From positions 372,001-436,000 of the forward strand of contig OX597822.1 in assembly GCA_951406725.2 (NCBI GenBank): a stretch of 64,000 bases of DNA, read 5' to 3'. The notes under the pieces were generated by a model. The model saw nothing but the letters and a program-made list of their open reading frames with translations. It ran no database searches and was not told the DNA's origin. Shown here one piece after another: positions 5,654 to 14,025 of the stretch; position 1 is the stretch's first letter; each line of letters starts with the position of its first letter. This DNA comes from Octopus vulgaris (lineage: Eukaryota). The translations under genes and the position numbers were made by a program.

Positions 5654-8600
5654 GTATTTGACTGGTACTTTACATTATCGACCCTGGAAGGATGAAAAGG
5701 TGACTTCGTTTGTGGTGGGTATTTGACTGGTACTTTACTTTATCGACCCTGGAAAGATGAAAAGGTGACTTCGGTTGTGGTGGGTATTTGACTGGTACGT
5801 TACTTTATCGAACCTGGAAAGATGAAAAGGTGACTTCGGTTGTGGTGGGTATTTGACTGGTACTTTACTTTATCGAACCTGGAAGGATGAAAAGGTGACT
5901 TCGGTTGTGGTGGGTATTTGACTGGTACTTTATTTTATCAACCCTGGAAAGATGAAAAGGTGACTTCGGTTGTGGTGGGTATTTGACTGGTACGTTACTT
6001 TATCGACCCTGAAAGATGAAAAGGTGACTTCGTTGTGGTGGGTATTTGACTGGTTCTTTACTTTATCAACCCTGGAAGGATGAAAAGGTGTCTTCGGTTG
6101 TGGTGGGTATTTGACTGGTACTTTACTTTATCGACCCTGAAAGATGAAAAAGTGACTTCGGTTGTGGTGGGTATTTGACTGGTACGTTACTTTATCGACC
6201 CTGGAAAGATGAAAAGGTGACTTCGGTTGTGGTGGGTATTTGACTGGTACTTTACTTTATCGACCTTGAAAGATGAAAAAGTGACTTCGGTTGTGGTGGG
6301 TATTTGATTGGTACTTTACTTTATCGACCCTGGAAAGATGAAAAGGTGACTGCGGTTGTGGTGGGTATTTGACTGGTACTTTATTTTATCGACCCTGAAA
6401 GATGAAAATGTGACTTCGGTTGTGGTGGGTATTTGACTGGTACGTTACTTTATCGACCCTGAAAGATGAAAAGGTGACTTCGGTGTGGTGGGTATTTGAC
6501 TGGTTCATTACTTTATCGACCCTGGAAAGATGAAAAGGTGACTTCGGTTGTGGTGGGTATTTGACTGGTACTTTACTTTATCGACCCTGAAAGATGAAAA
6601 AGTGACTTCGGTTGTGGTGGGTATTTGACTGGTACGTTACTTTATCGACCCTGGAAAGATGAAAAGGTGACTTCGGATGTGGTGGGTATTTGACTGGTAC
6701 TTTACTTTATCGACCTTGAAAGATGAAAAAGTGATTTCGGTTGTGGTGGGTATTTGACTGGTACTTTATTTTATCGACCCTGGAAAGATGAAAAGGTGAC
6801 TTCGTTGTGGTGGGTATTTGACTGGTTCTTTACTTTATCAACCCTGGAAGGATGAAAAGGTGACTGCGGTTGTGGTGGGTATTTGACTGGTACTTTATTT
6901 TATCGACCCTGGAAAGATGAAAAGGTGACTTCGGTTGTGGTGGGTATTTGACCGGGACTTTACTTTATCGACCCTGGAAAGATGAAAAGTTGACTTCGGT
7001 GTGGTGGGTATTTGACCTGAAAAGGTACTTTGTCACTTTATCGACCTGAAAGATGAAAAAGTGACCTGGAAAGATGAAAAGGTGACTTCGGTTGTGGTGG
7101 GTATTTGACTGGTACTTTATGACCCTTTTTATCGACCTGAAAGATGAAAAGGTGATTCGGTTGTGGTGGGTATTTGACTGGTACTTTACTTTATCGAACC
7201 TGAAAGATGAAAAAGGTGACTTCGGTTGTGGTGGGTATTTGACTGGTCATTTACTTTATCGACCCTGAAAGAGGAAAAGGTGACTTCGGTTGTGGTGGGT
7301 ATTTGACTGGTACTTTATTTTATCGACCCTGGAAAGATGAAAAGGTGACTTCAGTTGTGGTGGGTATTTGACTGGTACTTTATTTTATCGACCCTGGAAA
7401 GATGAAAAGGTGACTTCGGTTGTGGTGGGTATTTGACTGGTACTTTATTTTATCGACCCTGAAAGATGAAAAGGTGACTTCGGTTGTGGTGGGTATTTGA
7501 CTGGTACTTTACTTTATCGAACCTGAAAGATGAAAAGGTGACTTCGGTTGTGGTGGGTATTTGACTGGTACTTTACTTTATCGACCCTGAAAGATGAAAA
7601 AGTGACTTCGGTTGTGGTACGTATTTGACTGGTACTTTACTTTATCGACCCTGGAAAGATGAAAAGGTGACTTCGGTTGTGGTGAGTATTTGACTGGTAC
7701 TTTATTTTATCGACCCTGGAAAGATGAAAAGGTGACTTCGGTTGTGGTGGGTATTTGACTGGTACGTTACTTTATCGACCCTGAAAGATGAAAAGGTGAC
7801 TTCGGTGTGGTGGGTATTTGACTGGTTCTTTACTTTATCGACCCTGGAAAGATGAAAAGGTGACTTCGGTTGTGGTGGGTATTTGACTGGTACTTTACTT
7901 TATCGACCCTGAAAGATGAAAAAGTGACTTCGGTTGTGGTGGGTATTTGACTGGTACGTTACTTTATCGACCCTGGAAAGATGAAAAGGTGACTTCGGTT
8001 GTGGTGGGTATTTGACTTGTACTTTACTTTATCGACCTTGAAAGATGAAAAAGTGACTTCGGTTGTGGTGGGTATTTGATTGGTACTTTACTTTATCGAC
8101 CCTGGAAATATGAAAAGGTGACTTCGGTTGTGGTGGGTATTTGACTGGTACTTTACTTTATCGACCCTGGAAAGATGAAACTGTGACTTCGGTTGTGGTG
8201 GGTATTTGACTGGTACTTTACTTTATCGACCCTGGAAAGATGAAAAGGTGACTGCGGTTGTGGTGGGTATTTGACTGGTACTTTATTTTATCGACCCTGG
8301 AAAGATGAAAAGGTGACTTCGGTTGTGGTGGGTATTTGACCGGTACTTTACTTTATCGACCCTGGAAAGATGAAAAGTTGACTTCGGTGTGGTGGGTATT
8401 TGACTGGTACTTTACTTTATCGACCCTGGAAAGATGAAAAGGTGACTTCGGTTGTGGTGGGTATTTGACTGGTACTTTATTTACTTTATCGACCCTGAAA
8501 GATGAAAAGGTGACTTCGGCGTGGTGGGTATTTGACTGGTACTTTACTTTATCGACCCTGAAAGATGAAAAAGTGACTTCGGTTGTGGTGGGTATTTGAC

Positions 8601-11600
8601 TGGTTCTTTACTTCATCGACCCTGGAAAGATGAAAAGGTGACTTCGGTGTTGTGGGTATTTGACTGGTACTTTACTTTATCGACCCTGAAAGATGAAAAG
8701 GTGACTTTGGTTGTGGTGGGTATTTGACTGGTACTTTACTTTATCGACCCTGAAAGATGAAAAGGTGACTTCGGTGGCGTGGGAATTTGACTGGTACTTT
8801 ACTTTATCGACCCTGAAAGATGAAAAAGTGACATCGGTGTGTTGGGTATTTCACTGGTACTCTACTTTATAGACCCTAGAAAGATGAAAAAGTGACTTCG
8901 GTTGTGGTTGGTAGTTGAATGGTACGTTACTTTATCGACTCTGGAAAGATGAAAAGGTGACTTCGGTTGTGGTGGGTATTTGACCGGTACTTTACTTTAT
9001 CGACCCTGAAAGATGAAAAGGTGACTTCGGTTGTGGTGGGTATTTGACTGGTACTTTACTTTATCGACCCTGAAAGATGAAAAGGTGACTTCGGTTGTGG
9101 TGGGTATTTGACAGGTACTTTACTTTATCGACCCTGAAAGATGAAAAGGTGACTTCGGTTGTGGTGGGTATTTGACCGGTACTTTACTTTATCGACCCTG
9201 GAAAGATGAAAAGGTGACTTCGGTTGTGGTGGGTATTTGACTGGTACTTTACTTTATCGACCCTGAAAGATGAAAAAGTGACTTCGGTTGTGGTGGGTAT
9301 TTGACTGGTACTTTACTTTATCGACCCTGGAAAGATGAAAAGGTGACTTCGGTTGTGGTGGGTATTTGACTGGTACTTTACTTTATCGACACTGGAAAGA
9401 TGAAAAGGTGACTTCGGTTTGGTGGGTATTTGACTGGTACTTTACTTTATCGAACCTGAAAGATGAAAAAGTGACTTCGGTTGTGGTGGGTATTTGACTG
9501 GTCATTTACTTTATCGACCCTGAAAGAGGAAAAGGTGACTTCGGTTGTGGTGTGTATTTGACAGGTACTTTATTTTATCGACCCTGGAAAGATGAAATGG
9601 TGACTTCGGTTGTGGTTGGTATATGACTGGTACTTTATTTTATCGACCCTGGAAAGATGAAAAGGTGACTTCGGTTGTGGTGGGTATTTGGACGGTACTT
9701 TACTTTATCGACCCTGGAAAGATGAAAAGGTGACTTCGGTTGTGGTGGGTATTTGACTGGTACTTTACTTTATCGACCCTGAAAGATGAAAAGGTGACTT
9801 CGGTTGTGGTGGGTATTTGACTGGTACTTTACTTTATCGACCCTGGAAAGATGAAAAAGGTGACTTCGGTTGTGGTGGGTATTTGACTGGTACTTTACTT
9901 TATCGACCCTGGAAAGATGAAAAGGTGACTTCGGTTGTGGTGGGTATTTGACTGGTACTTTATTTTATCAACCCTGGAAGGATGAAAAGGTGACTTCGGT
10001 TGTGGTGGGTATTTGACTGGTACTTTATTTTATCGAGGCTGAAAGATGAAAAGGTGGCTTAGGTTGTGGTGGGTATTTGACTGGTACTTTACTTTATCGA
10101 CCCTGAAAGATGAAAAGGTGACTTCGGTTGTGGTGGGTATTTGACTGGTACTTTACTTTATCGACCCTGGAAAGATGAAAAGGTGACTTCGGTTGTGGTG
10201 GGTATTTGACTGGTACTTTACTTTATCGACCCTGAAATTTGAAAAGGTGACTTCGATTGTGTTGGGTATTTGACCGGTACTTTACTTTATCGACCCTGGA
10301 AAGATGAAAAGGTGACTTCGGTTGTGGTGGGTATTTGACTGGTACTTTATTTTATCGACCCTGAAAGATGAAAAGGTGACTTCGGTTGTGGTGGGTATTT
10401 GACTGGTACTTTACTTTATCGACCCTGAAAGATGAAAAAAGTGACTTCGGTTGTGGTGGGTATTTGCTGGTTCTTTACTTCATCGAACCTGGAAAGATGA
10501 AAAGGTGACTTCGGTGTGGTGGGTATTTGACTGGTACTTTACTTTATCGACCCTGAAAGATGAAAAGGTGACTTCGGTTGTTGTGGGTATTTGACTGGTA
10601 CTTTACTTTATCGACCCTGAAAGATGAAAAGGTGACTTCGGTTGTGGTGCGTATTTGACTGGTACTTTACTTTATCGACCCTGGAAAGATGAAAAGGTGA
10701 CTTCGGTGTGGTGGGTATTTGACTGGTTCTTCACTTTATCGACTCTGGAATGATGAAAAGGTGACTTCGGTTGTGGTGGGTATTTGATAGGTACTTTATT
10801 TTATCGACCCTGGAAAGATGAAAAGATAACTTCGGTTGTGGTGGGTATTTGACTGGTACTTAATTTATCGACCCTGTAAAGATGAAAAGGTGACTTCGGT
10901 TGTGGTGGGTATTTGACTGGTACTTTGTTTTATCGACCCTGAAAAGATGAAAAGGTGACTTCGGTTGTGGTTTGTATTTGACTGGTACTTTACTTTATCG
11001 ACCCTGGAAAGATGAAAGGTGACTTCGGTGTGTTGGGTATTTGACTGGTACTTTACTTTATAGACCCTGGAAAGATGAAAAAGTGACTTCGGTTGTGGTG
11101 GGTATTTGACTGGTACGTTACTTTATCGACTCTGGAAAGATGAAAAGGTGACTTCGGTTGTGGTGGGTATTTGACTGGTACTTTACTTTATCGACCCTGA
11201 AAGATGAAAAGGTGACTTCGGTTGTGGTGGGTATTTGACTGGTACTTTACTTTATCGACCCTGAAAGATGAAAAAGTGACTTCGGTTGTGGTGGGTATTT
11301 GACTAGTACTTTACTTTATCGACCCTGGAAAGATGAAAAGGTGACTTCGGTTGTGGTCGGGTATTTGACTGTTACTTTACTTTTTCGACCCTGAAAGATG
11401 AAAAGGTGACTTTGGTTGTGGTGGGTATTTGACTGGTACTTTATTTTATCAACCCTGGAAGGATGAAAAGGTGACTTCGATTGTGGTGGGTATTTGACTG
11501 GTACTTTACTTTATCGACCCTGTAACGATGAAAAGGTGACTTCGGTTGTGGTGGGTATTTGACTGGTACATTATTTTATCGACCCTGAAAGATGAAAAGG

Positions 11601-13963: not shown

Positions 13964-14025
13964 AATCAGATTGTCAAAAGCCGGAAGAAATATCGCAATT
14001 AATTTCTTTTGACGCTCTAACGAGT
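13956..14025 (-). mobile_element. Residual tRNA-derived head of the SINE-C copy that seeded the satellite
   Basis: Minus strand cgttagagcgtc...gcgatatttcttccgg...tctgatttcaaatac aligns to the SINE-C head cgttagagcgcc...gcggtatttcgtctg...tctgagttcaaattc (25400-25466). Confidence 0.75.

What the first reader, a model, noticed from the sequence alone, without database searches (positions are those of the whole stretch)
5654..14025. 8.3-kb satellite born inside a single SINE: tandem amplification of the SINE-C central domain with the parental tRNA head still attached
Seen: the unit (actggtactttactttatcgaccctggaaagatgaaaagg..gacttcgg) aligns to the reverse strand of SINE-C (actggtacttaatttatcgaccccgaaaggatgaaaggcaaagtcgacctcgg; compare 23038-23100). 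After the last unit the sequence continues into the remaining SINE head (13964-14025). The array starts and ends with the 8-mer gtatttga, which lies in the B-box region at the right end. Inference: microhomology-driven duplication or rolling-circle amplification of only the conserved central domain gave ~128 copies. The surviving head would provide a possible Pol III entry on the minus strand, reading into the array. Each plus-strand unit also contains a c(UUCG)g hairpin (gtgac-ttcg-gttgt), whose function is unknown.
Basis: partly seen in the sequence, partly recalled or inferred. Interest (0 to 1): 0.8.

Follow-up and report, generated by a model that had tools for sequence, protein, structure and literature searches.

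The report
Satellite grown inside a dead SINE
An 8.3-kb block of 128 head-to-tail copies of a 65-base piece sits in register inside one decayed copy of a common short jumping element (a SINE), whose middle was likely duplicated between two short matching sequences and then expanded in steps; it is a clear example of a known route from mobile DNA to satellite DNA, and it is likely not a working RNA gene.

Summary
Window 5654-13963 has 128 units of about 65 bp, 96.7% identical to the modal unit. The unit and the adjoining head (13964-14027) align in register to a tRNA-derived SINE family in the window; 0 of 1000 shuffles reach the joint score. An older family copy shows that the terminal 8-mer is probably native SINE sequence at both ends, which supports a short-repeat-mediated first duplication. 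All units share the parent's decay, so an already dead copy was amplified. Recurrent multi-unit variant blocks and a polar deletion favour stepwise unequal exchange or conversion over one monomer rolling circle. Contigs from four public runs carry the same low-copy head and flank, and two bridge the unit-unit junction, so the array is not a pure assembly artefact. The functional ideas fail. The head's A and B boxes are degraded, and a younger SINE with an 11-bp target duplication cuts the head. 124 of 128 units carry a T4 run on the SINE strand, and the UUCG pair has probability below 0.01. Closest known: the squamate SINE-derived satellites (sSat3 of snakes, 67-nt unit) and Alu/B1 minisatellites. 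Verdict: new member of a known kind, in a mollusc (probably an octopus). Interest 0.3.

The parts
5654..13963 (-). Satellite array: 128 units of about 65 bp plus a terminal 8-mer; SINE sense is the minus strand. Unit = 3' half of the B box + conserved central domain + about 10 nt of downstream SINE body
5648..5661 (-). Left end: the 8-mer plus 6 further bases that continue in register with the SINE body of an older family copy (distal short repeat of the first duplication)
   Evidence: 11 of 14 against the copy near 52840-52860; 0 of 16600 background positions
5627..5647 (-). Possible remnant of the SINE 3' end after an internal deletion; not significant
   Evidence: best local match falls on the tail end of the old copy, but 475 of 1000 shuffles score as well
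13955..13967 (-). B-box remnant (GATTTCAAATACC; young copies GAGTTCAAATTCC), holding the proximal 8-mer
13964..14027 (-). Decayed tRNA-derived head of the parent SINE (family positions about 20-79); a 2-bp indel near 13975 differs between runs
   Evidence: nhmmer E 7.6e-11 for 13897-14030
14021..14031 (-). A-box remnant TGATAGACTCG (young copy TGGCAGAAACG), overlapping the target duplication
   Evidence: read from the sequence
14026..14036 (+). Target-site duplication, left copy (CTATCAAGTGT)
   Evidence: family D14
14037..14370 (-). Second, younger tRNA-SINE of another family inserted into the parent's head; consensus-like A box 14349-14359 and B box 14306-14314; no T4 inside
   Evidence: 88% to copies at 32839-33176 and 40353-40691
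14371..14381 (+). Target-site duplication, right copy
22948..23178 (-). Reference: young full-length copy of the parent family (followed by a head-truncated tandem partner, 22763-22947)
25383..25613 (+). Reference: second young full-length copy, 93.5% to the first
52713..52935 (+). Reference: old diverged copy with a different tail, which shows the 8-mer-like sequence after the domain
   Evidence: (E 2.1e-10)

Best explanation
The array is 128 tandem copies of a 65-bp internal piece of one decayed tRNA-derived SINE, with the SINE head still attached on one side, and it likely arose where it lies by a duplication between two short matching sequences followed by likely stepwise, likely neutral expansion. 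Steps: (1) a SINE of the older subfamily inserted and decayed (shown: head and unit are each about 68-69% identical to a young copy, and all units share the same indels). (2) The sequence TCAAATAC lay both in the B box and just after the central domain, 65 bp apart (shown at both array ends; that it pre-existed is inferred from one old copy). (3) Slippage or unequal exchange between these repeats made the first dimer (inferred; Haber-and-Louis type). (4) Unequal crossing-over and gene conversion copied blocks of several units and homogenised the array, most strongly near the head (block structure and polarity shown; mechanism inferred). (5) A younger SINE inserted into the head with an 11-bp target duplication (shown; its order relative to step 4 is unknown), and most of the parent's 3' part is no longer recognisable. 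The array has no predicted function as a Pol III RNA; it would behave as a long VNTR or locus-specific satellite.
For: Unit, head and head+unit align to SINE copies, 0 of 1000 shuffles in 5 of 6 tests. Head (42 of 62) and unit (49 of 71) are equally diverged from the same young copy, as expected of one parent, while units are 96.7% alike. The left end continues in register with an old copy for 14 nt. Variant blocks: 7 consecutive unit pairs share informative variants at lag 27 (units 6-12 with 33-39) and 5 each at lags 20 and 7; the best run in 300 shuffles was 5, reached once. The 1-bp deletion class (41 units) is absent from the 29 units next to the head; 1 of 20000 shuffles gives such a run. 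In 4 of 4 laid runs the head and right flank are covered at 0.8-5.6 times the flank depth, against 16-1000 times over unit-specific bins; contigs in X4 (13861-13956) and X5 (13866-13956) bridge the unit-unit junction. The short-repeat model for Alu/B1 minisatellites is in PMC6947457 (passages read); the same anatomy in snakes is in PMC10702118 (parts 1-4 of 5 read).
Against: The pre-existence of the 8-mer rests on one old copy; the two young copies match it at only 4 of 8. No 3' tail or target duplication of the parent SINE is recognisable (left flank against young tails: 398 and 140 of 1000 shuffles as good). Lag 27 has z 4.0, only just above the family-wise 95th percentile of 3.84. Head alone against one young copy is weak (33 of 1000). 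Unit-bin depth is far higher in X4 and X5 than in X1, which could mean other arrays; the tool says these depths are no copy number.
Confidence: 0.78

Rival explanations
1. The 65-bp piece was excised as a circle between the 8-mers, amplified by rolling-circle replication and put back in one event; later exchange added the variant pattern.
For: Exact phase (128 units plus the 8-mer) and high identity fit excision between direct repeats. The 29 head-proximal units are the most uniform (mean 1.25-1.3 differences per unit in units 97-128).
Against: 42 shared variant types occur in multi-unit blocks at lags 7, 20 and 27 and with polarity, which needs several rounds of block copying. Both ends lie in the parent's own context, which in-place duplication explains without reinsertion.
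Confidence: 0.08
2. This locus is one member of a multi-locus satellite family born elsewhere (as with snake sSat3), which spread with its head-bearing terminal unit or recombined into a homologous SINE here.
For: Unit-specific bins reach 365-1000 times the flank depth in X4 and X5, more than 128 units would give if depth were proportional. Snake sSat3 has thousands of loci with one extended terminal unit (PMC10702118).
Against: The head is at or near single-copy depth in 4 of 4 runs (0.8-1.6 times in bin 14005-14033; 2.3-5.6 times in 13976-14004). Both ends continue into SINE sequence of matching age. Contig depths are summed and are no copy number.
Confidence: 0.09
3. The head, or the intact second SINE upstream, drives Pol III transcription through the array, giving a repetitive structured RNA with a function.
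For: The second SINE is on the same strand, has consensus-like A and B boxes and no T4 of its own, so a read-through into the old head is possible. The head's own T4 overlaps a 2-bp indel that is missing in one contig each of X4, X5 and X8.
Against: The parent's boxes are degraded. 124 of 128 units carry T4 on that strand where the two young copies have none; T4 as a Pol III stop is recalled knowledge. Neither strand of the unit folds better than shuffles (z 1.14 and 0.20). UUCG closing pair probability is 0.002-0.007. No Rfam family over the array end or head at E up to 1 (13600-26000 scanned).
Confidence: 0.03
4. The length of the array is an assembly artefact: a short tandem was expanded by the assembler.
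For: Private changes are transversion-rich (29 tv, 17 ts) and somewhat denser mid-array, as residual long-read errors would be. No long read was available.
Against: 89 distinct units with ordered shared variants; unit bins are at least 16 times the flank depth in 4 of 4 runs and the junction is bridged in 2 of 4.
Confidence: 0.02

Closest known systems
SINE-derived satellites (sSats) of squamates, above all snake sSat3 (Vassetzky, Kosushkin, Ryskov 2023, PMC10702118; parts 1-4 of 5 read)
   Same: The unit is part of a tRNA-SINE: in snakes 67 nt, covering the 3' head with box B and part of the body; here 65 nt from mid-B-box through the body. Tens to hundreds of units per locus, units far more alike than SINE copies, locus-specific subvariants, and one extended terminal unit that continues into the SINE.
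   Different: Different SINE family and phylum (mollusc, probably octopus). Only half of the B box is in the unit. It appears to be one locus born from an already decayed copy, not a family of thousands (not testable genome-wide). The head is cut by a second SINE. Subtelomeric position is unknown.
Alu- and B1-derived minisatellites and the short-flanking-repeat model of Haber and Louis 1998 (as reviewed in PMC6947457, passages read; the originals were not read)
   Same: A 5-10 bp direct repeat flanks the motif that becomes the unit; later growth is by slippage, conversion or unequal exchange inside a SINE.
   Different: Longer unit and an 8.3-kb array; tRNA-derived parent in an invertebrate.
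Tandem HCD-SINE arrays of the bivalve Scapharca broughtonii (PMC11481361, passages read)
   Same: Mollusc; first element with a head, then repeats truncated at both head and tail.
   Different: There 4-15 longer units and usually a final copy with a complete tail; here 128 short units and no recognisable tail.

Membership tests
SINE-derived satellite (general class, PMC10702118) | Tandem unit derived from part of a SINE and shorter than it | tested here: met
   65 bp against a 231-bp SINE; 0 of 1000 shuffles
SINE-derived satellite (general class, PMC10702118) | Parent is a real dispersed SINE family | tested here: met
   Two full copies, a truncated partner and older fragments in the window; tRNA-type A/B boxes read from sequence. 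ARAGORN finds no tRNA gene.
SINE-derived satellite (general class, PMC10702118) | At least four middle monomers | tested here: met
   128 units
SINE-derived satellite (general class, PMC10702118) | Extended terminal unit continuing into the SINE on one side | tested here: met
   Head to family position about 20 on the right; the first 19 nt are not recognisable; 6 extra nt on the left
SINE-derived satellite (general class, PMC10702118) | Units more homogeneous than the SINE copies | tested here: met
   96.7% to the modal unit against 76.7% of head+unit and 69.4% of the old copy to a young copy, and 93.5% between the two young copies
SINE-derived satellite (general class, PMC10702118) | Unit length about 67-290 nt | tested here: inconclusive
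   65 nt, just below the shortest reported unit (67 nt); it could equally be called a long minisatellite
SINE-derived satellite (general class, PMC10702118) | Multi-locus family, subtelomeric preference | not testable with these tools
   No genome held
sSat1/sSat2/sSat3 proper | Derived from Squam1-3 SINEs in a squamate | tested here: not met
   The host looks molluscan: of the named relatives of the window's Penelope-like RT, five are bivalve proteins and four are labelled as bacterial symbionts. Works like an sSat, is not a member of these three families.
Named SINE conserved-domain superfamily (CORE, V, Deu/Nin/Inv, Ceph, Meta, MESC, alpha, beta) | Match to a published domain consensus | tested here: inconclusive
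   A domain of about 45-50 nt is shared with SINE-like repeats of other head and tail in 121 of 121 metagenome loci (found with that motif; 0 hit the head or tail). No consensus text was found in the supplements searched (one file unsearchable in 31 and 63; SINEBase supplements unreadable).
Active Pol III (type 2 promoter) transcription unit | Intact A and B boxes and no early T-run terminator | tested here: not met
   A box 7 of 11 to a young copy; B box TTTCAAATACC; T4 at 13976-13979 and 13932-13935 and in 124 of 128 units. The strict B-box pattern also misses the young copies, so that count is not used.
Octopus SINE families OK / OR1 / OR2 (Ohshima and Okada 1994) | Identity to the published consensus | not testable with these tools
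   Only the citation was seen. The resemblance of these repeats to octopus SINEs, and of the second SINE to CORE-SINEs, is recalled, not tested.

The most novel reading that the evidence does not exclude
The stretch from the B box through the anciently conserved SINE domain is a recurrent seed for satellites across animals. Snakes (67 nt) and this mollusc (65 nt) independently amplified nearly the same B-box-anchored window of unrelated SINEs, because a B-box-like short repeat or a protein bound there fixes the breakpoint. The locus would then be a natural 128-fold array of a domain whose function is unknown, polymorphic in length among close relatives, in which protein binding or chromatin effects of that domain could be read directly.
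Probability: 0.1. Interest if true: 0.55.

Novelty: new member of a known kind. Interest (0 to 1): 0.3.

Why it matters
The squamate study left open whether SINE-derived satellites occur outside scaled reptiles. This locus shows one in an invertebrate, with the birth junctions still readable: a short repeat at both ends, a parent that had decayed before amplification, and block-wise growth. Searches of the held library found no cephalopod example, and an O. vulgaris repeat annotation lists 80 satellite families without their origin (parts 1-2 of 3 read and its supplement searched). But bivalve tandem SINEs and Alu/B1 minisatellites are in print, so the class is not new. Its use is as a tidy case for satellite birth and as a possible length-polymorphic marker; nothing found points to a host function.

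Tried and rejected
Whole-genome search: no genome is held, so other arrays and an unamplified allele could not be sought. RNA: no RNA holder listed; this is no evidence either way. Collection scans with a motif covering both unit and SINE: 0 in viral contigs (a second motif also 0) and 0 in prokaryote genomes. The metagenome scan gave 121 loci from about 1 of 64 parts scanned; none had the unit's form of the motif and none held a tandem of the domain. Parent's 3' tail in the left flank: not significant against young copies or the old copy (475 of 1000); a tail-motif search of the window was at chance level (21 matches, 35 of 100 shuffles as many). UUCG hairpin, unit structure and Rfam or tRNA matches: rejected; the 'forced energy' line used a mis-registered structure and was dropped. 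Copy number from contig depth: not derived, since the tool disclaims it; the 20-fold spread between runs is only a hint. An empty site without the second SINE: no such joint among the 15 listed (104 more not shown). Naming the conserved domain: failed; figures and some supplementary files that could settle it were not readable. Host genes near the array: none seen among ORFs of 100 aa or more, of which only part of the 113 was displayed; short exons would be missed. Earlier scan notes: nothing for this genome or these sequences.
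Full report
Observation. TRF finds a 65-bp array at 5654-13963 with 128.1 copies. Splitting at the junction gives 128 units, 89 of them distinct, plus a final 8-mer; the 126 regular units are on average 96.7% identical to the modal unit. On the minus strand the unit aligns to two young full-length copies of a 231-bp tRNA-type SINE in the window, at 39 of 51 and 49 of 71 columns, with 0 of 1000 dinucleotide shuffles as good. 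The sequence right of the array aligns to the SINE head at 42 of 62 (0 of 1000) and 38 of 62 (33 of 1000), and head plus last unit form one continuous alignment over family positions 20-144. The unit begins in the middle of the B box, runs through the central domain, and ends about 10 nt after it.

The two ends. On the right the head is decayed and aligns only from position 20. A second SINE of another family (14037-14370, 88% identical to two other copies) sits in it with a perfect 11-bp target duplication. On the left the flank does not match the tails of the young copies. A profile search found an older, differently tailed copy near 52713-52935 (E 2.1e-10). After the domain it reads TCAGATATTAGTAT, where the array's left end reads TCAAATACAAGTAT: 11 of 14, with 0 of 16600 background positions as good (one copy, and the length was the best of four tried; 6 of 8 for the 8-mer alone, background 0.6%). 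So the left 8-mer is probably native SINE body and not just a broken last unit, and the array is in register with its parent on both sides. The young copies match that 8-mer at only 4 of 8, so the parent probably belonged to the older subfamily. A possible tail remnant at 5627-5647 is not significant (475 of 1000).

Order of events. Head and unit are about equally far from a young copy (68-69% of aligned columns), and the units share the same insertion and deletion against the family, while differing from each other by about 3%. The copy that was amplified had therefore already decayed (inference). This argues against amplification through retrotransposition.

How it grew. There are 113 variant types, 42 of them shared. 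Seven consecutive unit pairs share informative variants at lag 27, and five each at lags 20 and 7; the best run in 300 shuffles was 5, seen once. The lag-27 peak alone (z 4.0) is only just above the family-wise threshold (3.84). A 1-bp deletion class in 41 units is missing from the 29 units next to the head (1 of 20000 shuffles). Block copying and polarity are what unequal crossing-over and gene conversion produce (established satellite and minisatellite theory; PMC6947457, passages read). A single monomer rolling circle would give uniform units, though an early rolling-circle step later overwritten cannot be excluded. Private changes are transversion-rich (29 to 17), so some are probably assembly errors.

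Independent data. 20 of 24 listed runs hold part of 13400-14700, 7 at half of the words or more, under several organism codes. Contigs of four runs from four studies and four organism codes were laid on 13860-14700; X1 may be the window's own source. All four cover the right flank with 0-2 differences in about 355 nt (plus one gap in X8), joined to the end of the second SINE. The head is covered at 0.8-5.6 times flank depth and the unit-specific bins at 16-1000 times. Contigs in X4 and X5 bridge the unit-unit junction with more than 31 letters on each side; none shown does so in X1 or X8. A 2-bp indel in the head differs between runs. The tool states that these depths are no copy number, so they show only that the tandem and its low-copy head exist in very close relatives.

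The domain. A motif covering both unit and SINE matched 121 metagenome loci (about 1 of 64 parts scanned). They are SINE-like repeats that share about 45-50 nt with the parent's central domain and neither its head nor its tail (0 of 121 loci hit); none shows a tandem of the domain. I could not name it from the papers or supplements that were readable.

Function claims. The parent's A box matches a young copy at 7 of 11, and the G of GTTC in its B box is a T. 124 of 128 units carry T4 on the SINE strand, where the two young copies have no T4; that T4 stops Pol III is recalled knowledge. The only plausible promoter is the second SINE, whose transcript would meet T4 at 13976-13979 (overlapping the variable indel) or at 13932-13935, inside the first unit. 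The UUCG closing pair has probability 0.002-0.007, and neither strand of the unit folds better than shuffles. There is no Rfam match over the array end or head and no tRNA gene in the window.

Host. That the window is octopus DNA is my recall of its SINEs and microsatellite load, not a tool result.

Comparison. Vassetzky et al. 2023 (PMC10702118, parts 1-4 of 5 read) describe SINE-derived satellites in a survey of 56 squamate genomes. The snake type has a 67-nt unit covering box B and part of the body, up to hundreds of units, and typically one extended terminal unit. They leave open whether such satellites occur elsewhere. Tandem SINE arrays with a headed first copy and doubly truncated repeats are reported in a bivalve (PMC11481361, passages), and Alu/B1 minisatellites born between 5-10 bp repeats are reviewed in PMC6947457. 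This locus meets the structural features of the class and is not a member of sSat1-3. No cephalopod case turned up (listings only), nor in the O. vulgaris repeat paper (parts 1-2 of 3 and supplement search); the library lacks most subscription journals. An earlier AI note of this scan (e1-7814136, unchecked) reports a similar array in another genome, which suggests such events are not rare.

Verdict. The array is a real, well-preserved SINE-derived satellite, most likely born in place by short-repeat duplication in a dead SINE and grown stepwise (0.78). It is a new member of a known kind; the Pol III and hairpin ideas are not supported. Interest 0.3.

Noticed in passing
window 22763-23178: Tandem dimer of the same SINE family: a full copy followed directly by a copy that lacks the first 46 nt of the head (91% alike); a second partial tandem duplication of this family within 10 kb of the array.
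   Followed up: partly
window 5646-5659: A 6-bp perfect inverted repeat with a 2-nt loop (AAATAC-TT-GTATTT) straddles the left boundary of the array; possibly chance in A+T-rich DNA.
   Followed up: no
window 13975-13976: 2-bp indel in the old head: the two bases are missing in one contig each of X4, X5 and X8, and two single-base gaps nearby show in one X1 contig at half depth; the shorter form fits the family consensus.
   Followed up: partly
window 29587-30885 (-): 432-codon open frame of a Penelope-like retroelement (RT, Pfam RVT_1 E 2e-6; relatives carry GIY-YIG; best hit 63%).
   Followed up: partly
window 17979-20666: 2.7-kb compound microsatellite: (ATCC)n at both ends with a (GTCC)n-rich core, a symmetric gradient of unit change.
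   Followed up: no
window 47696-49909: 2.2-kb (ATAC)n array, 94% pure.
   Followed up: no
window 3842-4193: Two copies of a 187-bp G+C-richer unit (86% alike), unrelated to the SINEs studied.
   Followed up: no
window 14231-14370 and 14836-14969: The second SINE and an inverted partial relative 470-620 bp away form a long imperfect inverted repeat (58 nt at 91%, 65 nt at 78%) next to the array.
   Followed up: no
window 35841-36100 and 38448-38825: Two stretches share a short unique-looking sequence in opposite orientation next to long A/T-rich tails (seen in the ORF translations); possibly two copies of a poly(A)-tailed element.
   Followed up: no
L001-L121: Several SINE-like families in metagenome contigs, with at least two different heads and several tails, share the 45-50 nt domain with this window's SINE.
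   Followed up: partly
window 24236-24285: Short degenerate (CCCTAA)n telomere-like run.
   Followed up: no
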